NCBI GenBank assembly: GCA_017445845.1 | Contig: JAFSRY010000036.1 | Coordinates: 18,626 to 82,625 of the forward strand | Direction: 5' to 3' | DNA: 64,000 nucleotides | Source of the DNA: Prevotella sp. | GTDB taxonomy: Bacteria > Bacteroidota > Bacteroidia > Bacteroidales > Bacteroidaceae | Shown: piece by piece, positions 8,697 through 43,230 of the stretch | Numbering within the stretch: position 1 is the stretch's first letter | Layout of the letters: the number at the start of each line of letters is the position of its first letter | Position numbers and translations under genes: made by a program | The notes under the pieces: model-generated | Databases searched by the model: none | Seen by the model: only the letters and a program-made list of their open reading frames with translations | Told to the model about the DNA's origin: nothing

Positions 8697-10228
8697 CTAT
8701 TGTATTACTTTCTTACCTCCGATGATGTTGACGCCCTTCTGCGGAGCCATGAGACGCTGTCCCTGCAAGTTGAAGATGCTTGGGTTTTGCGTTTTGAGAT
8801 TTGACGTTGCGAGTTCGCTGATAGCCGTCACTTCATCGTCGTCAATCGTAATGCTGAAGAACTTGGCAGGTGCGTCACCATCGAGCACGAGGAATGCTTT
8901 TCCGGCACCGACATTAGCATCGTCACCGAGCTGATAGAAACCAACCGTATCGTTCTTTTTACCTAAGACGTAGAGTGTCTTGCCTTCGTGGGCTGCCTTG
9001 AGTTCGCTGCCTGTGGCGGCAGTGGTTGTTCCGGCAAAGACATTGTCACCTACGGTCTCAGCTACGACGGGATAGAGCTGGAAGTCGAAAGCTGCGGCAG
9101 CATTGCCGACGAGCAGCACGCCCGTGTTGGCTGGGATGATGTTTCCGGCAATCTTCTTCAGGTTCAGGCTGCTGCCGTCACTGGTGGCACGGAAGGCCGT
9201 CACGCCTTCAGGGATGAGCGATGCCTTCTCTGCATAGAATGTTGCTGCATACTTACTGGTACCGATCTCTGCATTGGAGCTGAAGTTCACGCTGGCAGCT
9301 GTTGCAGGCTTGGTGAGCAGGTAGTTGATGGCATTCTTGGTGAACAGCTTGATGTTGTCGAGGAATGCGTTCTCGTTCACCCACTGGTAGGCTGCAGGAC
9401 CGCAGGTCAGCACGGTTCCCTTCCACTCTTCATCGTTGAACATGCCCGGCAGGAACTCCACGATGAAGGCTCCGAAGTAGTCGCCGATATGTCCCCAAGT
9501 GCCGAGGTCGATGCAGTTCCACGACTGCTCAAACTGGCGCAGCTTATTGGGGTCGTCGTTGTTCAGCCCTGTTGTCGTGTTCAGTCCTTCGCCCTTCGGC
9601 AGCAGGTCATTCCAACCCGTGTTGATGTCGGTATACCAAGAGGTGGAACTCTCGAAAGCAAAGCCTTCAGCGCCGATACCATCCGTATTGGCAGTGCCGA
9701 TGCCGGCATAGATGGGGTGTGCGGTGCGGTCGAAGGTGTTGGCAAGGTTGGCATTGATGACCCACTGCTTCAGTGTGCCTTCAGAGTTGGTGAATCCGCC
9801 GTGACCTTTTTCAGTGGGTTCGCACATGCGTCCGATGAGGTTGACCATCGGAACAGCCTCTTTCGTGAGCAGCAGTGAGCCACCGTTCTTGACGAAAGTC
9901 TTTAAGGCGTTCACGAAAGCCTCGTTGTTGTAGAGGGCTACATTCTCGTCATACGAATTGGCGGGTCTGTCGACGTTCAGCCATACAACACTCACGTCAT
10001 CCATCTTGCCGTCGATGTTGTTGATGAACTCATTTGTATCCAGAAACTTTCCGATGCTCTGAGGGCATGTCTCGAAGGTTTCATTCACAAAGTACTGGTC
10101 GAAAAAGGTCTGTGCCTTTTCCATCTCGCCCGTGTTCTGGTTGGTCAGATTCCAGATGTAGGCCACCTTCTGAGAGAAGGTGTGCTTGTCAGCAGCAGTG
10201 CTGCCATCATTGTAAAAATCTTTTTCAT
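8697..10228 (-). pseudogene. DUF4960-like secreted protein with sorting tail; 1-nt frameshift in the signal peptide
   Basis: ATG at 10228 gives MKKIFTMMAALLLTST, like the paralog at 11317, but is out of frame with the 8697..10166 ORF. Adding one G near 10180 restores TAFSQKVAY. Could be a sequencing error. Confidence 0.7.
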
Positions 10229-31930: not shown

Positions 31931-32842
31931 TTATGATGGATTTCCTTCTTCAATTGTGAGGTCAAGTTCATGGATGAGCTTATCAAAGGCGCTATTGCAA
32001 GACGGCCCCATGTCCTGCAATGTCTGAAGTCTGCTTTGCTTGAAATTGCGGTAGAAAAGGATGTCGCGATGCAGATAATAGGACTTGTTTTTAATCTTCC
32101 CCCGATGCTTCAGGATCTCAATCCCAATCATGCCGCGCAAATTATTTCCTTTTTCATCCGTGAAGATATGTATTTGCTCATAATTGGTAAATCCGATGGC
32201 AACATCAGGATTGTGCATGTCGGCCCGGCTGCCGATATCTTTCAGCCAAGGCTTTATACAGAATCCCTCCCTCTCATTCCAAATATAGCAGGTCACCACG
32301 ACAGGAATGTTTTTACGGATAGCCAAGGAGCCTATGGAACAAAAATCTGCAGTAGTATCCTGGAGCAGTCTATAATACACTTCATCGAAAAAAAGAATCT
32401 TGATGCCCATAGTATCGATGAATTCCCCTATGAGGTCAACATTTTCTTGTTTATCATACCAGCTGGCCTTCATGATATACAAAGGAGACTCTTTCAGCTT
32501 GCCCAGGAATTCGGCACCCGCTTCCTTATATGCTTCTGACCCCTGGATGTCATGCAGATCTTCCGATTCTATGCTGCAGTAGTACGCAATCAACGACAAA
32601 AGGAATACCCTCTCGCAGGTATCTTCAAGCAATACTAACGTCGGCAACTTTTGGTCAATGGCAATATGGCATACCTGATGAACGACAAATGCCGTCTTAC
32701 AGCTATTCACCTCACCAATGACCGTTGTCACCTCTCCGGGATAATACCCCCTGATGGTCTTGTCAAGACACTCAATACCTGTATTTATAGGTGTTACCTT
32801 CTCGTGAATGATTCCGTCAATTATTTTACTGATGTGTTCCAT
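31931..32842 (-). CDS. DnaB-like helicase C-terminal (RecA-fold) protein, degenerate
   Basis: INTGIECLDKTIRGYYPGEVTTVIG....KT and IEILKHRG; Walker A is atypical (GEVNSCKT). Confidence 0.75.
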   Translation of the reverse strand: MEHISKIIDGIIHEKVTPINTGIECLDKTIRGYYPGEVTTVIGEVNSCKTAFVVHQVCHIAIDQKLPTLVLLEDTCERVFLLSLIAYYCSIESEDLHDIQGSEAYKEAGAEFLGKLKESPLYIMKASWYDKQENVDLIGEFIDTMGIKILFFDEVYYRLLQDTTADFCSIGSLAIRKNIPVVVTCYIWNEREGFCIKPWLKDIGSRADMHNPDVAIGFTNYEQIHIFTDEKGNNLRGMIGIEILKHRGKIKNKSYYLHRDILFYRNFKQSRLQTLQDMGPSCNSAFDKLIHELDLTIEEGNPS

Positions 32843-32877: not shown

Positions 32878-33102
32878 TTATGGGAAAAGTGGCAAAGACT
32901 CACCATTAACGATGTCAGCTGAACTATCCTCATATTCCTGAAAGAAAATGTCTGCTGTTGCGTCTTCCAATTCCCCATAGCTGATGTCTGCTGAAGTATC
33001 CTCCAGTTCTTGATAGTTGATGCTCTCATTGTGCAGAGCATCTGAAAGCTTGTTTACTAAGGTCTGAGCCTCTACGTCAATCTTTGAAATCTGAGTCGTC
33101 AT
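32878..33102 (-). CDS. 74-aa acidic protein with three 12-aa repeats
   Basis: YQELEDTSADI / YGELEDATADI / FQEYEDSSADI; promoter motif CAAAGTTA at 33177. Confidence 0.6.
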   Translation of the reverse strand: MTTQISKIDVEAQTLVNKLSDALHNESINYQELEDTSADISYGELEDATADIFFQEYEDSSADIVNGESLPLFP

Positions 33103-33250: not shown

Positions 33251-33787
33251 TATGAAATCCTTATTCTAATGGAATATGCTCTTTGAGTCGGAGGAGCATT
33301 TGACGAAGACGGTCAATTCTTTTAGTCTTAATCCTTATTCTAATGGAATGAAGATAGAACAGTATTATTAACAAATAAAAAAATGAAAAGAGAAAGTCTT
33401 AATCCTTATTCTAATGGAATGAAGATAGAACCAATTTCTTATTAATTCATATTATGAAACTTAATTGTCTTAATCCTTATTCTAATGGAATGAAGATAGA
33501 ACCCTTATTGTTAAATTATATGGGAAAATTAGTATCGTCTTAATCCTTATTCTAATGGAATGAAGATAGAACAAATATTATTAATTAAAAACTACAATTA
33601 TGAAAACACTGTCTTAATCCTTATTCTAATGGAATGAAGATAGAACAAAACTCAATGAAAAATTTTTGAAATATGCTGCAAGTCTTAATCCTTATTCTAA
33701 TGGAATGAAGATAGAACAAAAAAAATTATTAAGTTTATTTTTATGCCATTCGTCTTAATCCTTATTCTAATGGAATGAAGATAGAAC
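33251..33787 (-). CRISPR. Type III CRISPR array: 7 identical 36-nt repeats + 1 divergent distal repeat, 7 spacers of 34-38 nt
   Basis: GTCTTAATCCTTATTCTAATGGAATGAAGATAGAAC at 33325, 33396, 33467, 33537, 33611, 33682, 33752. The minus strand ends in ATTAAGAC (type III 5' handle) and the AT-rich leader is on the right. Confidence 0.97.
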
Positions 33788-34200
33788 AATCCTTTTATCT
33801 AATGATTTAAAGAACATCATTGTCTTTTCTATCTTTCTTACGACCTTTATTCTCAACAATTTAACTTCCATAATCTCAGATTTTCGCAAATACTATGCTT
33901 TTTCATTGTCAAATGCTGGGTTTTTATACATTATAATTCTGCTATCTTATTAATTATCAATTGATTAACCTATCTAAAAAGTTCGCAAATGATTCGTTTA
34001 GAATCTGTTTGACGGGTTCTTGCGAAATCTGCTCACAATTTCATTGGGTTTCCACTATGCAAAATTAGTCATTTTTCGCAAGAAATCCAAGAATATTGTC
34101 ATTTTTATCTTTTGCGAAGAAAATCCATTTCATGGGAAAGTTCTCAAAAACTTAAGTTCCTCATAATGAGCAGAATAACCAAAAACGATTTTTCGCAAAT
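33788..34200 (-). promoter_or_regulatory. CRISPR leader
   Basis: AT-rich; CAAAATTA promoter motif at 34060; repeated TTCGCAA motifs. Confidence 0.7.
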
Positions 34201-34266
34201 GTTTTGCCATTCAAATGTGTACCAATAAGTCAAAGACCGCTTCAGCGAGTAAAGAATGAAAGCATA

Positions 34267-34682
34267 CTATATTACTACAATCTTAACTGGTTCTTTCATC
34301 TTCACAGGTGGGATGTACTCAATTCGTCTCCTTTCCCCGGTCTATATGCAAAACTGTTAGGGAGGAAAAGTCGTTCAAAACGTGGCTCAATAATCTTTCT
34401 GATGGCTTGTTGGACTATTTTATCCCTCACAGCAGCCATTCCCAAAACACGCATCTCATTTGGATCCTTTGTCTTCGGAATGGAAATTTGCAAATAGGGT
34501 TGCGGTTTCCATTCACCTGCGATCAAGTCTTCACGGAGTGTCCTAATATGTGTAATCTTCTCCTTGTTAAACTCCTCTATCGTTACCCCGTCAACACCCC
34601 CTGCCGAGCCTTTCGACTTGACAACATTCCATGCATCGTATAGCGTGGCTTCCTGACAGAGGGTGTTGAACTGAGTGGACAT
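34267..34682 (-). pseudogene. Truncated CRISPR-associated reverse transcriptase (RT-Cas1 5' part) joined to a probable cas2 3' end
   Basis: RT0-RT2 motifs (AW..VK..GSAGGVDG, IPK...R.LG...VRDKIVQQA, FAYRPGKG) break off abruptly; another frame continues RRIEYIPPVKMKEPVKIVVI*. Confidence 0.75.
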
Positions 34683-34686
34683 AAGG

Positions 34687-35748
34687 CTATTTGTTATTAT
34701 CTTCCAACGTGTCTAATGCTTGAGACAGCAAATTGTGGAGAGGAACCTGTGCTTTATCCACTTCTTTCAGCTTGTCCTTTTCATCAAGTCTTGTATCCTG
34801 ACTATAGTAGTACAATGACCGGTTGCCGTCAATAGCCATTAAAGTCATTAATGAACCGACGATACCAGTTCCTGGTGTTAAATTGAAATACAACCTATTG
34901 TCCTTTGTATCTTTTGCTTTAACATATTTGTCAACAATTTCAAAGCATAGGTCAAACTGATTATAGTCTGCCTCTTGTTCTGAGAACTTAATCTTAAGAC
35001 CATCAGGTATCCATTTCTTTTCAGGGAACATATCCATTGCAACCATCTTTATTAGATATTCCAGTTTTTCATTTATCGGTGCATTTGTTCCTAAAACTTT
35101 AGCCATAGGGTGTTCCTTTTTAGGCATCTTAATTAATATTTCTTTTAAGTATTGGTCATAGTTCCTTTTGATCTTTTCTTGTTCATTTTTATCAGAGTAA
35201 TAGCTGCTATTCAGCACATATAGTTCACAACTTGTATCTTTATCGTCAGTCAATTGAAGCATTCTGACAAGCGGTGTTAAGTTATGGTTAAAAGGGTTAA
35301 TAGCAGATATGCCAGATATGAAGACCTTTTGAGGGATCTTACTTTTCTGCTTACGACCGTCAGGGAAAAAACAGATAAGAGTAACCAATCCAAAAACACA
35401 AACACAAGTCGCTTTAATAGCATCCCATAGATTTTGATCAGGCATATACAGACTCATCATTGTATTTGTAAGCCATCCAATATGGATAACAAACAATAAA
35501 AGATAAATAGTACCAAGTCTTTTGGGGACTATAGCATTAGCAAGGAGTTTGGTAAGAATAACGCTCCTGAAATTAAAACTATAGTTGAAGCATTGCCCTA
35601 CAATCCATAGAACAAAAACACAAACAATTGTAGTTATTGCCCATGGCTCCCAGCAACTCCAGTTTCCTCGAATGCCCCTTAGGGCAAAATACTCACCTAG
35701 TATTAATAGAACAAGAGCTATCCAGCTATAATAATCACGATAATTCAT
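34687..35748 (-). CDS. Membrane-anchored CARF-like effector (about 4 TM + CARF)
   Basis: Four hydrophobic N-terminal segments, then KVFISGIS...LYFNLTPGTGIVGSLMTL...LYYYSQ (CARF-like); last intact gene of the cas operon. Confidence 0.65.
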   Translation of the reverse strand: MNYRDYYSWIALVLLILGEYFALRGIRGNWSCWEPWAITTIVCVFVLWIVGQCFNYSFNFRSVILTKLLANAIVPKRLGTIYLLLFVIHIGWLTNTMMSLYMPDQNLWDAIKATCVCVFGLVTLICFFPDGRKQKSKIPQKVFISGISAINPFNHNLTPLVRMLQLTDDKDTSCELYVLNSSYYSDKNEQEKIKRNYDQYLKEILIKMPKKEHPMAKVLGTNAPINEKLEYLIKMVAMDMFPEKKWIPDGLKIKFSEQEADYNQFDLCFEIVDKYVKAKDTKDNRLYFNLTPGTGIVGSLMTLMAIDGNRSLYYYSQDTRLDEKDKLKEVDKAQVPLHNLLSQALDTLEDNNK

Positions 35749-35756
35749 ATCACTAT

Positions 35757-36110
35757 TTAATATTCTCTAAACTGTACAAATTTAAATTCTGATATTTTCT
35801 TTCCATCAGGAGTCATGATGGTGTTACGTTCTGTAGTAGAAGCAATACAGATGATGTCCAGTTCCTTAAGGGCGCATACTATATTATAAGTAAATGTCAT
35901 TTCACCCATCACATGCACAACAGTTTTTTCTTCCTTAATTCCCATGATGACCTCTGTGCACTCTTTTACAAGGTAGAGTATTTCTTGCTTTGAATATGCG
36001 GGCTCAATAATTGGGAAAGAAAGATCAACAATTTCCCCATAGTAGTGAGCTGCTTGAATTTGCTCCTCACTCCAGTTTTCAGATGGATGGTTTGTCAGAT
36101 TGATGAACAT
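35757..36110 (-). CDS. Small CRISPR-associated protein, Csx15/Csx20-like putative ring nuclease
   Basis: MFINLTNHPS..W...Q, VHVMGEMTF, STTER, F.FVQFREY; lies between two CARF effectors. Confidence 0.65.
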   Translation of the reverse strand: MFINLTNHPSENWSEEQIQAAHYYGEIVDLSFPIIEPAYSKQEILYLVKECTEVIMGIKEEKTVVHVMGEMTFTYNIVCALKELDIICIASTTERNTIMTPDGKKISEFKFVQFREY

Positions 36111-36113
36111 AAA

Positions 36114-37487
36114 TTACGATTTTGAATAAGGTTGAAATATTCCTCTAAAAAATTTGAGCCCTTCTTTTAAGTCTTTGAGGATTTCAGAATAAGATTTAGG
36201 AGATTCTCTGTCAATATCATGAGCAATTGTGTTTCGGTCAAGATTGACATTATCGTAATAGCTATTGAAAAGACTAAATACTATATCTTCATTTTTCATC
36301 AAAGTTTCAAGATCCTTACGGAGTTTTTCAATGCTTTTGAGTCCTCGGTCTTCTTGGGCATAGTTGAGAGCTCTTCTAATTGCTTTCCTTTTTACATTTG
36401 GGAGTATTTCTCCTTTTTTATTTCTTTTCTGATAGCCTTTCTTATCTACAACTAATTCAGTAGGAATATAGTTATCTGGCACTAATTCACAACAAAAACT
36501 TAATGCTGATTCTACCAAGTTTATTAAAGCATAACCATAATTGTGATGTTTCTCATGCCACTCAGCCATACGAAATTGGTAGATATACTCGTTAAGTGAT
36601 AAAGGGAATCGTTTTGCAAACTTACTAATAATATCTGGTATCAATAATTTCCCAATATCAGGAAGATTCTTACAATCCATTAATAGAGAGAGTTCCTTTA
36701 TACCAGTTCTAAATTCGCGTAACTGATTTAAATTTTTTGCATCAGCAAATCTGAGAAGTTGCTTACCAGAATTAGTATAAAGTCCAGATGAATCTTTCTC
36801 GAGCAATTTGGTTATTTTATAGGTATTCCCAAATTCTTGAAAATTGTAAGCTCCTATTATCCAGTCGTTAACATCCAAAATAGTAGTCAAGTCAACAATG
36901 GGGGCATATCCTAATTCATTCCTCATCTCAAACATGCCATAGTAGATATGGGATACGGTAATGCCTTTGACATTTTTCAGGAAAATAAGCAGTTGCATGA
37001 TGTAAATGGGCAAGGAACGAAAAGAATGAGTTACATCTACAACCAATTCGTCATCTTTATTAAAATATTGTGCTAAGCCCAATATAATTCTTATGTTTTC
37101 CTTTATTTCCAGCTCATTTGAGCCATATTTAATCAGTACTATCTTGGATTCACTGCCCAAACTTTTTTCTACCACATCTTTGTGTGGAAATTCCAATGGG
37201 CTTTTTGAATTGGCTTCATCGCAGTACACACCCATCTCAATGTGAATATCGGGATCAAAATCTTGGGAAGGTGTGAAAATCTTATAGATTTCCTCCCACA
37301 TAGAATGTACGCTGCCAATCAAAACTATATTGTCAATTTTGAAATGCTCTTTTAACGCTGCACCTACGAATGAGTAATTTCCCAGGTCTTCATCATCAAG
37401 ATGATAGTGTATTGGAGAATATTCTCGCCTCGATTTATCAGCAAAGATACCTGTTCCCAAAAAAGAAATTAATACGCGTTTCCCCAT
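36114..37487 (-). CDS. csx1: Csx1/TM1812-family CARF-HEPN ribonuclease
   Basis: LISFLGTG, DVTHSFRSLP, YYGMFE, HEPN motif RNTIAH. Confidence 0.88.
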   Translation of the reverse strand: MGKRVLISFLGTGIFADKSRREYSPIHYHLDDEDLGNYSFVGAALKEHFKIDNIVLIGSVHSMWEEIYKIFTPSQDFDPDIHIEMGVYCDEANSKSPLEFPHKDVVEKSLGSESKIVLIKYGSNELEIKENIRIILGLAQYFNKDDELVVDVTHSFRSLPIYIMQLLIFLKNVKGITVSHIYYGMFEMRNELGYAPIVDLTTILDVNDWIIGAYNFQEFGNTYKITKLLEKDSSGLYTNSGKQLLRFADAKNLNQLREFRTGIKELSLLMDCKNLPDIGKLLIPDIISKFAKRFPLSLNEYIYQFRMAEWHEKHHNYGYALINLVESALSFCCELVPDNYIPTELVVDKKGYQKRNKKGEILPNVKRKAIRRALNYAQEDRGLKSIEKLRKDLETLMKNEDIVFSLFNSYYDNVNLDRNTIAHDIDRESPKSYSEILKDLKEGLKFFRGIFQPYSKS

Positions 37488-37489
37488 AA

Positions 37490-38596
37490 TTAAAGCACTG
37501 ATAATTTAACAAAACCCATTAATTGAAGTCCTTTATTGTATTCTACTATCTTGCGTGATTTATAAAGAGGTATCTTGGTTTCTGCCCCGTTAATATATTT
37601 TGTCCTATATCCCGTATCTATAAAGTCATCGTATTTCCAGTCGCCTGTAATAGAATGGAAGCCACTGCCTGCTGACATTTTCAGTATACAGTAAGAGTTC
37701 TTCTTTTGTACTAAATCCAACATATCTTCAATGAACTCCAGAATCTCGTCTGTTCTCTCTGCATCTTTGTAATGTTCAAAGAATTCCTTTTCTTTCAACA
37801 GATAATCCCATGTAATGTCATTGACGAATCCGAACAAAGATTCTATCCCGCCATTCAACAATTCTTTCTTAGCATCTGCATATTTGACTTTAAGACTTAG
37901 TTTCGGATCCTGTAGAACTGTTTCGAAAGCATCTGCAGAAAACTTAATGGTACCCCTACCTGATTGTCCAGGAGGGATGCACTCATAAAGGGTATTGAAT
38001 CCTGAGGGCTGATAATCTTTAGATGTGAAGTTGTTGGCATGTTTCCAACCTCCATGCCACTCATTCCTATTCCTTTCTTTCCACAAGTTGAAAAGTCTGG
38101 TATTCACAAGACTGGTAGATTGCATTTCAATATCACCTACTTGTATGAATTGCATAAAGTCAGTTCCGTACCTTTCTCTGATGCTACCTAAAACCGAAGT
38201 ATCGTTTTGCTCATCCTGCCTAAATCGGGAAAAAAGTATCGAGCGAAGTGCCCCTTTCAGCGAACTTCCTGCTACAAGGGGCTTATCGTGAAACTGGCTA
38301 CGGAGGAATGACTTTATAGGATTTACAGAAAGGGCAGGTAGGCAGAATATATACCTTGATGTATCATCCAACTGATTTCCCAACAATTCACAAATACCCT
38401 TTTCGTCAGCAGAGGCGAGTAATTTGGAAAGACAATCAATGTCGGTTCCATGGGCAACAGCTTTTTGTAAGTCCAGAATATAGACTTTGCCGTTTTTTAC
38501 AACATAATCAACGCCTCGAATCCATTCGTTTTCGTTACCAGCACCTACAGTAAGTGGAGTTAATACCTCCATGTTGATATCATATCTTTTATTCAT
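37490..38596 (-). CDS. csm5: Type III-A RAMP Csm5
   Basis: LTPLTVGAG, GSSLKGALRS, GSGFHSITG, MGFVKL. Confidence 0.88.
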   Translation of the reverse strand: MNKRYDINMEVLTPLTVGAGNENEWIRGVDYVVKNGKVYILDLQKAVAHGTDIDCLSKLLASADEKGICELLGNQLDDTSRYIFCLPALSVNPIKSFLRSQFHDKPLVAGSSLKGALRSILFSRFRQDEQNDTSVLGSIRERYGTDFMQFIQVGDIEMQSTSLVNTRLFNLWKERNRNEWHGGWKHANNFTSKDYQPSGFNTLYECIPPGQSGRGTIKFSADAFETVLQDPKLSLKVKYADAKKELLNGGIESLFGFVNDITWDYLLKEKEFFEHYKDAERTDEILEFIEDMLDLVQKKNSYCILKMSAGSGFHSITGDWKYDDFIDTGYRTKYINGAETKIPLYKSRKIVEYNKGLQLMGFVKLSVL

Positions 38597-39639
38597 AGGC
38601 GATTGTTGATAATTATAGGAAGTGTAATTGAGTGACCATTACGCCAGACTGGATGGTTAATACTGATGTCTTGAGCGTGTGGAGTCAGATCTATTATTCG
38701 TCCCATACTTTCCTTATTTTCCGTTCTACGGAAAACAGAGCCTGGCAGGAAAGCATACACAGCATTCTTTCGATAAGAATGATACGGATAGGTAGTTATC
38801 CAACCTCCACGACGAGTAAAGTCATAGGCTACATGTTCAGAGGCCAACAACTGACTCAATTGTTCTTTGGACTCGGGTATAAACATTGACAGCGACACCT
38901 GATGGTCTGCGCCAGATGGTGTTTCTATCTCCATCTTCAATGGAGTACCGTCCTCGCGTTTTGTTATCGTGTCAAAGAAACCAAAGCCCACATAACGGTC
39001 TGTACCGATTCCCTCCATTTCAAGAATTCTTATAGCTTTGTCAAGTCTTGAAGTGTCATCACCTGATACAAGGAAATATAGACCGGAAGCATCACAAAAC
39101 GTGATACGATCGACATAGTATGGTTTAGCATCGTTATGACCAGCCCTATCTTTAACAGCCACTCGTTGCATAACCTCTGATTTTATGAATTCTTTTGAGC
39201 CAGAAGCATCCTCTGGAAGCGAAGCCTTTGTCAGATACGTTCCTTGTATAAGATGAAGATCGTTTCCATTTCCATGAAAGAAGCTGTGTCCTTTCAGCAA
39301 CTGAGGATAGAGTCTGGCATCAACCCATCTTACTTTCTTCACCTTTTTGGCATTTGCAGGGTCGGAAAACTGCGGCAATGAGGACTGAAGAGGCATCGGC
39401 AAGAAATAGATTGCTTCACTTTTCTCGTCTTGTTGGTAGTATGGGAAAAGATCACTAATGATGCAACCCAAATTACCATTTTCAGGAATCTGCTCACCCA
39501 CCTTTGCCAAACAGGCTATCAGTGCAGCATGAAACGTGTCGGAATGTATCGTTTTCTGACTGACGCTTGCATCTTCACGTAAATCGCTGATATGCAGAGG
39601 GGCTTTGAAATGCAGTTTGTAGATTTTAAATTTTGCCAT
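38593..39639 (-). CDS. csm4: Type III-A RAMP Csm4
   Basis: IHSDTF..ALI, GIGTDRYVGFGFF, RRGGW, PGSVF. Confidence 0.9.
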   Translation of the reverse strand: MAKFKIYKLHFKAPLHISDLREDASVSQKTIHSDTFHAALIACLAKVGEQIPENGNLGCIISDLFPYYQQDEKSEAIYFLPMPLQSSLPQFSDPANAKKVKKVRWVDARLYPQLLKGHSFFHGNGNDLHLIQGTYLTKASLPEDASGSKEFIKSEVMQRVAVKDRAGHNDAKPYYVDRITFCDASGLYFLVSGDDTSRLDKAIRILEMEGIGTDRYVGFGFFDTITKREDGTPLKMEIETPSGADHQVSLSMFIPESKEQLSQLLASEHVAYDFTRRGGWITTYPYHSYRKNAVYAFLPGSVFRRTENKESMGRIIDLTPHAQDISINHPVWRNGHSITLPIIINNRL

Positions 39640-39653
39640 AGTAACACAAACCA

Positions 39654-40361
39654 TTAATACAGCTTGAGATTATCTTGAACTATACCTTCCCATTTAGTAT
39701 CTGTTGTATAGTCTTTTCTCTTGAGCTCGCCAAACTTTATCTGCCCATATCCACGGGAGCCACTTCCGCCAATATAATCTTTCTCGATGAGTCGAAGACC
39801 TTCCAAGAAGAAGTCTATAAGCTGTTGTTCAGACGGCATCTCTTTACCTTCTGCATCTTTGCCTTCAAAAATATTAATGATAAACTCAGAATGGAACTTT
39901 GCACCAGCAGGTACTCGTTCGATTTGTCGAGGATTACCTGCTGTTCCTTTCACACGATCAATAGTATTTTCAAACTTATTCTCTGTAAAAGGCATGTCAA
40001 GATTATCGCTTTCTTCTAACTCTCTCTTCGAATCAGATGTAAGCATGGCGTCTCTGACAATTAGACGAGATGGTTGTGCTGACTTGCTGCCAGCAGCAAA
40101 CCCGAATAGACTTTTTACCATACCACGATCATTTCCCTCTTTACCAATTTCGCTAATGCCATTAGCCTGCTCTAATAAACAACGCATCTTGCCTTTTAGA
40201 GAGCTTCCTGGAATATATGGCTGATTCTCTTTGGTAGCCAGTTTAATAACAGGGAGGTCAATACCACCGATTTCAACACTTTCCTTACTGCCACCAATAT
40301 GAAGCCCTGTAAGCAGTTCGATGGTGGTCTCTATCTTGATTTTCTTTACTAATTGTGCCAT
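39654..40361 (-). CDS. csm3: Type III-A RAMP Csm3
   Basis: TGLHIGG, IGGID (catalytic Asp retained), PYIPGSSLKGKMR, GGSGSRGYG. Confidence 0.95.
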   Translation of the reverse strand: MAQLVKKIKIETTIELLTGLHIGGSKESVEIGGIDLPVIKLATKENQPYIPGSSLKGKMRCLLEQANGISEIGKEGNDRGMVKSLFGFAAGSKSAQPSRLIVRDAMLTSDSKRELEESDNLDMPFTENKFENTIDRVKGTAGNPRQIERVPAGAKFHSEFIINIFEGKDAEGKEMPSEQQLIDFFLEGLRLIEKDYIGGSGSRGYGQIKFGELKRKDYTTDTKWEGIVQDNLKLY

Positions 40362-40385
40362 AATGAATACTTGTTTTAAGGGTTA

Positions 40386-40856
40386 TTACTCAGCTGCTTT
40401 ATGATAGGCTACAATAGCCTCAAAGATAGCTATAAAATTTTTGAAGGCCTGCTGTTTATCCGTTGTTTCTTTATCTGAAACAACGTCAATAGCATTTGAT
40501 AAGACATTATACAAATCTTCTATTTTGTAGTATTTCTTACCATCTTTTGCACGTCCTACAGCGTATGCTAATTTAGGCTTGAGAAGCAAAAAACTGCTCT
40601 CTTTGTAGCCTGTCATTTGTTGACGTTTGACTTCTCCAAAAAATTTGCGGAGCTGATTACTTGTCAGTTTTGACTCTTCAACAGGAGATGGCTCTTCTTT
40701 TTTTGTCTTAGGGTTATAGCGATTTTCCATATGTTTACCGTTTTTGGCAAGATGCTTCCCAAATCTCTCAGCAAACTGAATTGTAGAATCGGTCACCCCA
40801 TTCCTAATTGCTTCTGCAGGGATGTATTCATCCCATTGTTCTTTCCACTTTTTCAT
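40386..40856 (-). CDS. csm2: Type III-A small subunit Csm2
   Basis: QLRKFFGEVK, LKPKLAYAVGR, FEAIVAYHK. Confidence 0.93.
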   Translation of the reverse strand: MKKWKEQWDEYIPAEAIRNGVTDSTIQFAERFGKHLAKNGKHMENRYNPKTKKEEPSPVEESKLTSNQLRKFFGEVKRQQMTGYKESSFLLLKPKLAYAVGRAKDGKKYYKIEDLYNVLSNAIDVVSDKETTDKQQAFKNFIAIFEAIVAYHKAAE

Positions 40857-40870
40857 ATCTATATTGTAAA

Positions 40871-42526
40871 TTATAAGTTATTATCTTGTAAAAGGAGTTC
40901 CGCCCAACGAGCAGCAACTGCCATTAGTTCCAAATTTCGCCCTTTGTTTTTTGGTAAGTGTTCGTCTCTGAGGCTCAGACAGAAACCAAAGAGTTCCTTC
41001 TTCACTTCCTGTTTTGTTTCGTTTCGCTCATTTCCATATCCTTTGTATTTCTCCATAAAACGGGTCAGATAGTAGCTCATGTGCCACATGTAACTATAGT
41101 TTGGAGATTTGCCTTTCGACATTCGTTCCTTATTCATATCTGCAAGTTCAGCGTAAAGCATGATTTTGTGAAGAATACTCTTACTGAAACCATAGTCTTT
41201 GTTGTATGAGGTGATATATTTTACAAACTTATCTTTGTAATGCTCTACATAGGCATATTCGTGGTCAAAAAAATCTTTCTCGTTTGCATGATAGGGGCTT
41301 TGCTTGTTCCACGATATGGTTTTGCCGAACATGTGGAAGGCATTCTTCTCACCCTGTTTGGCAGCGTCCTCTGCCTCACCAGCCATCTCTGCAGCTTTTG
41401 CTATAGGATAATTAGGCTTGACGATAGCTACACCACCAGAGATACTGATACCCTCCTTAGAGAAACGCCTTTCAGTTTCGTCATGTATGAGTTTGGCAAA
41501 ATCTATCACTTTATCCCATCTTCCAACGATAAACAAATCGTCTCCACCCGCATAGATGACATTCATATATTTCTTGTAGGTTTCGTTGGTTCCATCAACT
41601 TTTGAATTCAACAAGTGATCTTCTACATCTTTTTCAAAGAAAAGACACAACTGATTTGAAAAGCTTTTATATGCAGCCAAAGAGTTAAAGCCTGTGATGA
41701 ATCGCTTACCCAATCCGTCAACGTCCATTCGCAGTATCGCCAAGTAGGTATCACCTTTGTTTCCTCCATCTGTGGTCGCATAGTCTTTGAAAGATCTGAA
41801 GCCTCTTAAGGGGTCATTTCGGAGTTGTTCTCCCTTTTCTATTTGACGTTTCACTGAAGGCAATACGATGATTGGCTCATCATCACCTCTAGCGGGGATT
41901 GTAAAATCCGCCTCCTTTAATCCTTTAGCATCGAACTCAATACTTGTTACAGCACAAACCTTGCGTTCAGAACTCATTATCAATTCTGAGCCTTTACCAA
42001 AGAAATTGTCATAGTTGTTAAGGATATACTCTTTAAATCTTTGATTCTTTTGCTGAGCAAAACCTGCACTGACAACTTTCCATAACTGACCAGGACCTTT
42101 CTTCTTGCCTTCAAAAGGAGGCTCGCCATACTTCCCCTCCACATTCACAATATCATCTTTTACATTGAAAGCAACATAGCTGATGTTGATGCCAAGTTGC
42201 CCATGGTGCTCCTTCCAAATATACTCCCTGCATGAACTCTGGCACTCATCCAAGGCTTGACAAACAGCCACTTTATTTGCTTCATTGATATTGGCAATGA
42301 AGAAGAACTTTCCTCCTGAGCAATACAGTTCGTCGTTTTCCGTGACAGTTCCACCTGCATTTATAACGGCATTCTTGGTTTTTTGATAATAGATTTCCTT
42401 CATATCTTCAGCCAATGACGCCGATCGACCTTTTAGACTGACAGCCGCTTTCCTTGAAGTAATGTTGTAGAGAAACTTCTGAATGCCAGAAAGGTCTCCT
42501 CCAATAAATAACTTATCGTATTTCAT
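40871..42526 (-). CDS. cas10: Cas10/Csm1 without HD nuclease domain, cyclase motif intact
   Basis: Begins directly at GGDLSGIQKFLY; RMDVDGLG; YAGGDDLF. Confidence 0.93.
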   Translation of the reverse strand: MKYDKLFIGGDLSGIQKFLYNITSRKAAVSLKGRSASLAEDMKEIYYQKTKNAVINAGGTVTENDELYCSGGKFFFIANINEANKVAVCQALDECQSSCREYIWKEHHGQLGINISYVAFNVKDDIVNVEGKYGEPPFEGKKKGPGQLWKVVSAGFAQQKNQRFKEYILNNYDNFFGKGSELIMSSERKVCAVTSIEFDAKGLKEADFTIPARGDDEPIIVLPSVKRQIEKGEQLRNDPLRGFRSFKDYATTDGGNKGDTYLAILRMDVDGLGKRFITGFNSLAAYKSFSNQLCLFFEKDVEDHLLNSKVDGTNETYKKYMNVIYAGGDDLFIVGRWDKVIDFAKLIHDETERRFSKEGISISGGVAIVKPNYPIAKAAEMAGEAEDAAKQGEKNAFHMFGKTISWNKQSPYHANEKDFFDHEYAYVEHYKDKFVKYITSYNKDYGFSKSILHKIMLYAELADMNKERMSKGKSPNYSYMWHMSYYLTRFMEKYKGYGNERNETKQEVKKELFGFCLSLRDEHLPKNKGRNLELMAVAARWAELLLQDNNL

Positions 42527-43230
42527 TCTGATATAGATGTTTTGTTTTCTTTATTCTGTAATCTTACTCGATGAATAGTTCCACACCCTATACTTGCATT
42601 CTTTCCAATACCCACATTGTTGGGGATGGAGAGGTTGCAGCAGAAGTCGGCATTGAAGGCCATCAAGGCAATACCTTTATTATATATAATGTAGTGTTCG
42701 CTCAACTGGGTAATCATGAGTAGGAGTTCATCTTCGAGATGAATACCCAACCCTTTCAACATTGATAAAAGGTTTGCCTTGAGGATATTTTCCAGTAGTT
42801 TCCTCTTTTCTCTATCATTGTCAGCCATTTTGTAGATTTGATAGTTCTTAGAATTTAGCGGAAGCCAGCGGTTGATATGATAGTTAAATGTCGTCTTCCA
42901 CGTCTGCATTAGAACTTTTACAGGGGCGACTCTACTGATATCACACGTAATCTCTCTTTCTCCGATTCTTAACATCCCATTTAATTCCGATAGGAATTGT
43001 CCAATGACATCGGCTCCTTCTTCAACACAGACAATGGCCGCCTTACCTCCTAATCGCTTATACTGGATAAGTGGATAGGCATATCTGAACTTTTCGTCAT
43101 CCAGGTGATTATGAAAATAAACATTGGGATGTTCGCCAAGGCTGTGTATAACCGCCCCTCGAAAAAGTGGTATTTCATTCTGGCGAATCTCCGCATCAGT
43201 TAAGACTGTTAGTGTTCGTATATATTTCAT
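42523..43230 (-). CDS. cas6: CRISPR endoribonuclease Cas6
   Basis: FHNH, YPLIQYK, WLPLN, G-rich loop GIGKNASIGCG. Confidence 0.92.
   Translation of the reverse strand: MKYIRTLTVLTDAEIRQNEIPLFRGAVIHSLGEHPNVYFHNHLDDEKFRYAYPLIQYKRLGGKAAIVCVEEGADVIGQFLSELNGMLRIGEREITCDISRVAPVKVLMQTWKTTFNYHINRWLPLNSKNYQIYKMADNDREKRKLLENILKANLLSMLKGLGIHLEDELLLMITQLSEHYIIYNKGIALMAFNADFCCNLSIPNNVGIGKNASIGCGTIHRVRLQNKENKTSISE

What the first reader, a model, noticed from the sequence alone, without database searches (positions are those of the whole stretch)
33325..33787. Type III CRISPR spacers look like translation-start regions, so crRNAs would be antisense to ATGs
Seen: on the + strand each of the six spacers between identical repeats is a nearly G-free A/T run, then an ATG at spacer position 18-28, then plausible N-terminal codons: ...aaaaaaATGAAAAGAGAA (MKRE), ...catattATGAAACTTAAT (MKLN), ...aattatATGGGAAAATTAGTA (MGKLV), ...acaattATGAAAACA (MKT), ...gaaatATGCTGCAA (MLQ, ambiguous), ...tttttATGCCATTC (MPF). 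They resemble the SD-less initiation regions of genes in this window (e.g. acaattATGAAA at 10228). Established: the ATTAAGAC handle and leader position put transcription on the minus strand, and Csm complexes bind complementary RNA, so crRNAs would pair across mRNA start codons. Inference: either RT-Cas1 acquisition from AT-rich transcript 5' ends, selection for accessible initiation regions, or co-option of a now-frozen array for translational control or transcript sensing. Caveats: n=6, and ATG is common in AT-rich DNA (two spacers also have a minus-strand ATG).
Basis: partly seen in the sequence, partly recalled or inferred. Interest (0 to 1): 0.9.

Follow-up and report, generated by a model that had tools for sequence, protein, structure and literature searches.

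The report
CRISPR spacers straddling foreign gene starts
All six spacers between the identical repeats of this gut bacterium's type III CRISPR array read like the start of a gene, which is real and recurs in a few related arrays; it is likely the footprint of a now-deleted reverse-transcriptase spacer-capture enzyme sampling the A/T-rich front ends of probably viral messenger RNAs, not a new gene-silencing device.

Summary
Observation confirmed. Seven identical 36-nt repeats hold six spacers (13-24% GC), each with a + strand ATG in a Bacteroidota-type start context. The signal exceeds composition shuffles (combined p 1e-5 to 1e-4; opposite strand 0.97). crRNA runs on the minus strand, so guides are antisense.

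The locus is an intact-looking type III-A effector set (HD-less Cas10, Csx1, Csx20, membrane-CARF) whose RT-cas1/cas2 is deleted; a near-identical strain appears to keep it.

The pattern is array-specific. Among 23 other arrays with this repeat, three hold 15 of 30 start-like spacers and twenty hold 7 of 408. No protospacer was found. Host matches are at background, and the start contexts fit phage better than host.

Best reading (0.55): RT-Cas1 captured A/T-rich, start-proximal RNA of an invader, the bias known for F. saccharivorans RT-Cas1. Against it: most other intact RT-Cas1 arrays show no such bias. Translational control is unsupported. Across the family there is no fixed ATG register. 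This scan noted similar arrays on other DNA (four notes).

The parts
33251..33287 (-). degenerate trailer repeat of the 37-nt type
   Evidence: 20-nt core identical to the repeat, 74 nt before the first exact copy; its other end resembles the 37-nt repeats of related arrays
33288..33324 (-). oldest spacer, 43% GC, no ATG; not start-like
   Evidence: sequence; also present in related strains
33325..33787 (-). CRISPR array: 7 identical 36-nt repeats, 6 start-like spacers
33361..33395 (-). spacer 1 (ATG at 23 on +; start score 15.3)
33432..33466 (-). spacer 2 (ATG at 23; score 6.9; also a minus-strand ATG, 7.8)
33503..33536 (-). spacer 3 (ATG at 18; score 6.6)
33573..33610 (-). spacer 4 (ATG at 28; score 16.3)
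33647..33681 (-). spacer 5 (ATG at 27; the ATG at 9 meets a stop after four codons)
   Evidence: exact copy in runs X1 and X2
33718..33751 (-). spacer 6, leader-proximal (ATG at 26; score 5.0)
   Evidence: exact copy in run X3
33788..34266 (-). leader and intergenic region, 31% GC
   Evidence: aligns with the region between cas2 and the array in intact loci L165 and L168
34267..34326 (-). cas2 remnant (residues 77-95)
   Evidence: 74% identical to L165 Cas2
34302..34682 (-). RT-cas1 remnant (residues 1-118 of 754, 34329-34682), fused by deletion to the cas2 tail
   Evidence: TIGR04416 and PADLOC RT/Cas1_IIIb hits; 81% identical to L165 RT-Cas1
34687..35748 (-). membrane protein with a predicted C-terminal CARF domain (candidate cOA effector)
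   Evidence: weak PADLOC CARF_TM hits; 285 homologues; no significant solved relative
35757..36110 (-). csx20 ring nuclease
   Evidence: family activity from PMC12409355
36114..37487 (-). csx1 (CARF-HEPN RNase), with an R-X4-H motif
37490..40856 (-). csm5, csm4, csm3, csm2
40871..42526 (-). cas10/csm1, 551 aa, GGDD intact, no HD domain
   Evidence: its residue 6 aligns to residue 253 of a full Csm1
42523..43230 (-). cas6b

Best explanation
This is a type III-A CRISPR array whose six newest spacers are antisense guides to likely translation-start regions of foreign, probably phage, mRNAs, likely captured from RNA by the locus's own RT-Cas1-Cas2 before that module was deleted. Shown: array, crRNA strand, effector genes, RT-cas1/cas2 deletion, start-like spacer content, no host target. 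Inferred: (1) the enzyme prefers A/T-rich, start-proximal RNA, as F. saccharivorans RT-Cas1 does; (2) in Bacteroidota, which lack Shine-Dalgarno sites, the A/T-richest part of an mRNA is the initiation region, so that preference lands on start codons; (3) only antisense copies give immunity and are kept; (4) on binding phage mRNA, Csm would cut it and Cas10 would make cyclic oligoadenylate for Csx1 and the membrane-CARF protein, reset by Csx20; (5) the module was then lost and the array stopped growing.
For: RT-Cas1 remnant beside the leader, 81% identical to intact 754-aa RT-Cas1. Run X7 has contig ends at both deletion breakpoints that read, by eye, as the missing RT continuation and Cas2 middle (against the L165 proteins). 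Both same-repeat arrays with an intact RT-Cas1 beside them carry start-like spacers: L168 5 of 10, L165 2 of 9; L167 (no RT-Cas1 between effector and leader) has 8 of 11. Matrix-free test on 24 low-GC spacers of the four arrays: 21 have a + ATG (shuffle mean 10.8, 0 of 5000 reach it) and 7 a minus ATG; 12 of 24 scored ATGs follow ATT (6-7% in phage sense windows); A at -3 in 75% against 43-45%; upstream G 3.5% against 13-14%. A/T preference alone explains much: 43-46% (host) and 30-49% (phage BF698P1) of sense 35-mers with GC up to 0.24 span a start. The 19 of 24 observed exceeds that (binomial p 3e-4 to 2e-3 at 0.43-0.49). Window contexts fit Lak and crAss-type starts (log-likelihood +4.5, +4.6) better than host starts (-5.6). 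Precedent: A/T-rich, antisense, start/stop-proximal spacers for FsRT-Cas1 (PMC10828431, PMC6821258, PMC13501316).
Against: No protospacer was found, so neither a real start nor a phage origin is proven for any spacer. RT-Cas1 is not sufficient. Six arrays beside other intact Bacteroidales RT-Cas1 genes, picked by the gene, hold 4 of 93 start-like spacers (strand unproven for those with other repeats). G221 has 0 of 20, G141 1 of 30, G332 0 of 7, G236 1 of 14, L107 1 of 11 and G391 4 of 9. Twenty same-repeat arrays, several beside RT-cas1 remnants, are mid-gene (7 of 408), and no other Cas1 was found in most of those genomes, so the same enzyme clade probably wrote both kinds. Start-rich arrays are not one leader clade. 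The replicate arrays were picked after ranking; L167 survives correction, L168 is marginal and L165 is not significant alone. V. vulnificus RT-Cas1 has no start bias. RNA origin is untested.
Confidence: 0.55

Rival explanations
1. RT-independent, transcription-coupled capture from DNA just downstream of strong early phage promoters, as in S. thermophilus type III-A.
For: Type III-A spacers peak 10-50 nt downstream of start codons without any RT, and natural spacers map to early promoters (PMC8860593, PMC13575424). The 37-nt-repeat arrays, mostly beside stand-alone Cas1, show 142 start-like spacers on + against 27 on the reverse strand of 1700.
Against: That bias peaks inside the coding region, whereas these spacers are mostly upstream sequence. 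In the 37-nt class the rate is a homogeneous 8% (overdispersion p = 0.27) and partly an A/T artefact (18% of Lak sense 35-mers pass the score). The all-or-none arrays occur only in the 35-36-nt class.
Confidence: 0.15
2. Capture is unbiased, but only guides to the ribosome-free, unstructured initiation region protect against this particular invader, so selection filled the array with them.
For: Start-like spacers come in runs within arrays, next to runs of mid-gene ones (L165), as expected for invader-specific episodes. Start fraction correlates weakly with low GC of the other spacers (rho -0.22, p = 0.016, n = 123).
Against: Hundreds of same-repeat mid-gene spacers are kept in the antisense sense (195 of 278 coding-like on +, control 73%), so mid-gene guides generally work for these effectors. 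A/T-rich guides pair weakly. One search listed no title on such a requirement.
Confidence: 0.14
3. Composition only: A/T-rich spacers from an A/T-rich invader contain ATG by chance.
For: n = 6. ATG occurs in 56-62% of low-GC sense windows of A/T-rich phages. Spacers 5 and 6 are weak, and the array was singled out by eye.
Against: Shuffle-controlled p of 1e-5 to 1e-4, strand-specific. P(all six low-GC with a late ATG) = 1e-5 even for Lak DNA. Independent arrays repeat it (L167 p 4e-7 to 1e-5).
Confidence: 0.08
4. The frozen array was co-opted to block or sense translation initiation of host genes.
For: The adaptation module is deleted and Cas10 lacks the HD DNase. The best host near-matches of spacers 1 and 4 lie at host gene starts.
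Against: Best host matches have 7-12 mismatches, the same as foreign start-like spacers laid on this genome (7-15). Six true host targets would all be missed in a 75.5% complete genome with p about 2e-4. The Csm3 Asp loop, Cas10 GGDD and Csx1 HEPN motif are present (catalytic roles recalled). Spacers are not shared with any of 2301 family spacers, and strain X5 has a single repeat here. No self-match was found in G391 or G803 either.
Confidence: 0.04

Closest known systems
Fusicatenibacter saccharivorans RT-Cas1-Cas2 (Record-seq; Schmidt et al. 2018, seen only through passages of PMC10828431, PMC6821258 and PMC13501316)
   Same: RT-Cas1 with a type III system; A/T-rich, antisense spacers near start codons.
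   Different: That was a laboratory record in E. coli of host transcripts, near starts and stops, from a III-D system. Here it is a natural III-A array, apparently foreign-derived, with all six spacers over a start and the enzyme deleted.
Streptococcus thermophilus type III-A adaptation (PMC8860593, PMC13575424; passages)
   Same: Type III-A; spacer enrichment near gene starts, also in natural spacers.
   Different: No RT; captured from DNA in either orientation; peak 10-50 nt downstream of the start; a modest enrichment, not whole arrays.
Bacteroides fragilis type III-B with RT-Cas1 (PMC5704556 passages; PMC10600005 passages and supplementary table rows)
   Same: Same repeat family and identical 8-nt handle; about 755-aa RT-Cas1; Cas6b.
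   Different: Cmr effector with CorA/SAM-AMP signalling. The arrays of a genome with that repeat type (G332) are not start-rich (0 of 7 and 0 of 7).
Vibrio vulnificus III-D and Prevotella-type VI-B RT-Cas1 (PMC6821258, PMC11662929; passages)
   Same: RT-Cas1 that can take spacers from RNA.
   Different: Vibrio shows no bias to gene ends. The VI-B enzyme shows no overall GC or antisense bias. The bias is therefore enzyme-specific.

Membership tests
Type III-A CRISPR-Cas (Csm) | cas10/csm1 with csm2-5 and cas6 | tested here: met
Type III-A CRISPR-Cas (Csm) | Cas10 GGDD cyclase motif with cOA effectors | tested here: met
   GGDD aligned; Csx1, Csx20, CARF_TM hits; activity untested
Type III-A CRISPR-Cas (Csm) | Cas10 HD nuclease (canonical, not universal) | tested here: not met
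   551-aa protein begins at the first palm region; an HD-less variant
Type III-A CRISPR-Cas (Csm) | array with leader, 8-nt handle and guides antisense to transcripts | tested here: met
   handle equals the B. fragilis Cas6 product; family spacers read as coding on +
Type III-A CRISPR-Cas (Csm) | crRNA expression and interference | not testable with these tools
RT-Cas1 adaptation module | full RT-Cas1 fusion plus Cas2 beside the leader | tested here: not met
   only RT 1-118 and Cas2 77-95 remain; intact in L165, L168 and apparently run X7
RT-Cas1 adaptation module | acquisition from RNA (splice-junction spacers, RT dependence) | not testable with these tools
   needs an acquisition assay
FsRT-Cas1-like acquisition signature | A/T-rich, antisense, start-proximal spacers | tested here: met
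   by sequence likeness only; no protospacer mapped
FsRT-Cas1-like acquisition signature | general to arrays served by the enzyme | tested here: not met
   20 of 23 other same-repeat arrays and most intact RT-Cas1 arrays are mid-gene
Regulatory CRISPR-derived RNA (mini-array repressors; category recalled) | guide complementary to a host gene or promoter | tested here: not met
   host matches at background; genome 75.5% complete
Regulatory CRISPR-derived RNA (mini-array repressors; category recalled) | guide conserved across strains | tested here: not met
   no shared spacer among 2301; strain X5 lacks all six

The most novel reading that the evidence does not exclude
This RT-Cas1 clade writes two kinds of array: mid-gene spacers from DNA for ordinary phages, and start-codon-spanning spacers from RNA for invaders whose DNA it cannot reach (A/T-rich crAss-like or megaphages). 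Start-rich arrays would then be a sequence-only marker of RNA-derived immunity in nature, and each spacer would give a real gene start of an unknown phage.
Probability: 0.25. Interest if true: 0.7.

Novelty: new variant of a known kind. Interest (0 to 1): 0.42.

Why it matters
RNA capture by RT-Cas1 has been shown in laboratory assays, but natural RT-linked spacers are mostly unassigned (PMC5513706 passages). An all-or-none split between start-rich and mid-gene arrays with one repeat offers a testable handle on when RNA is the source in nature, and a Bacteroidota RT-Cas1 (intact in L165 and L168) as a candidate recorder of 5' regions. It does not point to a new silencing system.

Tried and rejected
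Protospacer searches, none successful:
- Own genome: best 7-12 mismatches.
- 400 genus genomes by BLAST, only 2 candidates scored per genome. The best hit was 24 of 24 nt of spacer 3 at a start codon in G778, with mismatched flanks. Its 40 homologues do not begin like the spacer, none lies in IMG/VR, and 1 of 301 genus genomes has a distant one. Treated as chance.
- INPHARED and PLSDB: partial, non-significant hits only, including a Lak-A1 gene start; best ungapped matches in 150 kb of Lak have 9-15 mismatches.
- IMG/VR exact scans: 0 hits for cores of spacers 3, 4 and 5, for two L167 spacers (50, 69) and for the repeat (17). A mid-gene positive control also gave 0, so these negatives say little. 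Spacers 1, 2 and 6 were not scanned there.

Ideas rejected or left weak:
- Ribosome-footprint register: rejected at family level and in the replicates, although the window's own ATG-to-end distances are tight (9-17 nt).
- Lineage-fixed enzyme bias: not supported by the leader tree (13 rows, L168 and short-flank loci left out, long branches).
- Trans-acting Cas1 as writer of the mid-gene arrays: no Cas1 found in 8 of 9 such incomplete genomes tested.
- A family-wide 8% start enrichment: not relied on, because the score is inflated by A/T richness.
- The sigma-70 promoter scan was uninformative (6 found, 6.0 expected), as was repeat folding.
- Spacers 1-4 were not covered in runs X1-X4; a filter drops some records, so this is no finding.
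- 60 relatives had no close copy of the leader-to-csx20 DNA.

Full report
Setting. The window lies in a 2.46-Mb, 75.5% complete, 52% GC genome. Its relatives by repeat are Prevotella and other Bacteroidales, and the locus occurs in gut metagenomes including cattle and sheep.

Observation. The six spacers, ATG positions and G-poor upstream runs are as described. A start-site matrix from 231 unambiguous host starts (a heuristic, noisy set) scores them 15.3, 6.9, 6.6, 16.3, 7.8 and 5.0, against a median of 6.4 for true starts. Composition-preserving shuffles give a combined p of 1.4e-5 and 1.1e-4, and 0.97 on the other strand. Spacer 5 recurs exactly in runs X1 and X2, and spacer 6 in X3. These runs are from one study that may include the source, but they argue against an assembly artefact.

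Strand. The degenerate repeat is on the left and the 31% GC leader on the right, homologous to the cas2-to-array region of intact loci. The minus-strand repeat ends in the same 8-nt handle that B. fragilis Cas6 releases (PMC10600005 passages and supplement rows; one scanned supplementary file could not be read). In same-repeat arrays 195 of 278 spacers with GC of at least 0.35 read as coding on the window's + orientation (control for true sense 73%), and 42 of 42 overlapping spacer pairs agree in orientation. So the guides are antisense to mRNA. Expression itself was not seen.

Locus. On the minus strand: cas6b, HD-less cas10 with GGDD, csm2-5, csx1, csx20 and a membrane protein with a weak CARF hit. 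Then RT-Cas1 residues 1-118 are joined to Cas2 residues 77-95. No Cas1 was found elsewhere. Runs X3 and X5 span the same deletion; X5 also has only one repeat, which is either real loss or assembly collapse. X7 has contig ends at both breakpoints that I read by eye as the missing RT and Cas2 sequence, so an intact allele likely exists in a near-identical strain.

Survey. 178 score as start-like on + and 30 on the reverse strand. That score is inflated by A/T richness (18% of Lak sense 35-mers pass while 6% span a start), so I do not rely on the family average. The informative result is the split. The 35-36-nt repeat class is strongly overdispersed (39 arrays, 0 of 2000 permutations) and the 37-nt class is not (91 arrays, p = 0.27). 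With this repeat, L167 (8 of 11), L168 (5 of 10) and L165 (2 of 9) are start-rich, with entirely different spacers, while twenty arrays hold 7 of 408. L079 (3 of 6) and L226 (4 of 9, not significant against shuffles) have related repeats. Matrix-free features of the 24 low-GC spacers in the four same-repeat arrays match real starts: ATT before 12 of 24 ATGs, A at -3 in 75% and upstream G at 3.5%. A at -3 and absence of Shine-Dalgarno sites are the Bacteroidetes signature (PMC6847099, abstract).

Source. No protospacer was found, and the IMG/VR positive control failed too (see Tried and rejected). Host matches are at background. The window's contexts fit Lak and crAss-type starts better than host starts by about 10 log units (small models, and L167 fits host better than Lak). 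A foreign, probably phage, origin is therefore inferred.

Mechanism. In a host or phage of moderate GC, 30-49% of the A/T-richest transcribed 35-mers span a start; in A/T-rich phages only 4-26% do; uniform sampling gives 2-6%. An A/T-seeking RNA-capture enzyme would therefore produce many start-spanning spacers, and 19 of 24 suggests an added 5' preference. That is the reported behaviour of F. saccharivorans RT-Cas1: A/T-rich, antisense, near start and stop codons (review passages PMC10828431; PMC6821258; PMC13501316; the primary paper was not seen). Both same-repeat loci with an intact RT-Cas1 carry such spacers. Against this, RT-Cas1 is not sufficient. Arrays beside eight further intact RT-Cas1 hits were fetched, and the six with a detected array give 4 of 93. 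Of the intact loci, only G391 leans this way. Long mid-gene arrays sit beside deleted RT-cas1 in genomes without detectable Cas1, and near-identical leaders carry opposite spacer types. The bias therefore depends on something besides the enzyme, most simply the invader or the RNA-versus-DNA route; this is unresolved. Rivals: promoter-proximal DNA capture (PMC8860593, PMC13575424 passages), selection, composition and regulation. A ribosome-footprint register fails.

Known and new. The system is a type III-A member with a lost RT-Cas1 module, and start-proximal capture is known. Literature searches listed no title or abstract start describing natural arrays dominated by start-spanning spacers in Bacteroidota, but most subscription journals are not held. 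PMC8482600 (passages) reports only the coding-strand bias of natural type III spacers. This scan's earlier, unchecked notes describe similar RT-linked arrays in other genomes and none in this genome. I had stated my reading before seeing them.

Verdict. A real, replicated, array-specific pattern and a natural, extreme variant of a known acquisition bias, with targets unknown and no support for translational control. Interest 0.42.

Noticed in passing
window 34267-34682; L161/L163, L174, L178, L185, L036; L101, L216, L167: RT-cas1/cas2 has been deleted repeatedly, with different breakpoints or complete loss, in loci of this repeat family while effectors and arrays stay. No Cas1 was found in this genome or in 8 of 9 similar incomplete genomes. 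This suggests selection against the adaptation module, perhaps from self-acquisition toxicity.
   Followed up: partly
L163 1-8177: Tandem units of [deleted RT-cas1/cas2, leader, array] share one deletion (90-98% identical intervening segments), yet the three arrays (39, 34 and 14 repeats) share at most one spacer. Spacers seem to have diversified after the adaptation genes were lost; the writer is unknown.
   Followed up: partly
window 34687-35748: Membrane protein with a predicted CARF-like C-terminus, 285 homologues, often fused to PF06941 (or PF27247) domains, and no significant solved relative; a possible uncharacterised cOA effector family.
   Followed up: partly
window 33251-33287; L159: The trailer repeat is of the 37-nt type typical of stand-alone Cas1 arrays while the active repeats are 36 nt; L159 mixes both types. 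This hints at replacement of one adaptation module by another.
   Followed up: no
window 33800-43230: The cas locus is 38% GC against 50% for the window, consistent with horizontal acquisition.
   Followed up: no
window 31931-32842: DnaB-C-like helicase-domain ORF (weak hits) directly beyond the array trailer; strain X5 has an insertion of about 1.9 kb near 32910.
   Followed up: no
L050 and L079 arrays: Two spacers in L050 overlap one gene start, and two in L079 cover variants of one N-terminus: repeated sampling of the same start.
   Followed up: no
L167, fourth spacer from the trailer: Its ATG is followed by TAG at codon 4, which would be open in the TAG=Gln code used by Lak and some crAss-like phages (code use recalled); a single case.
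   Followed up: no
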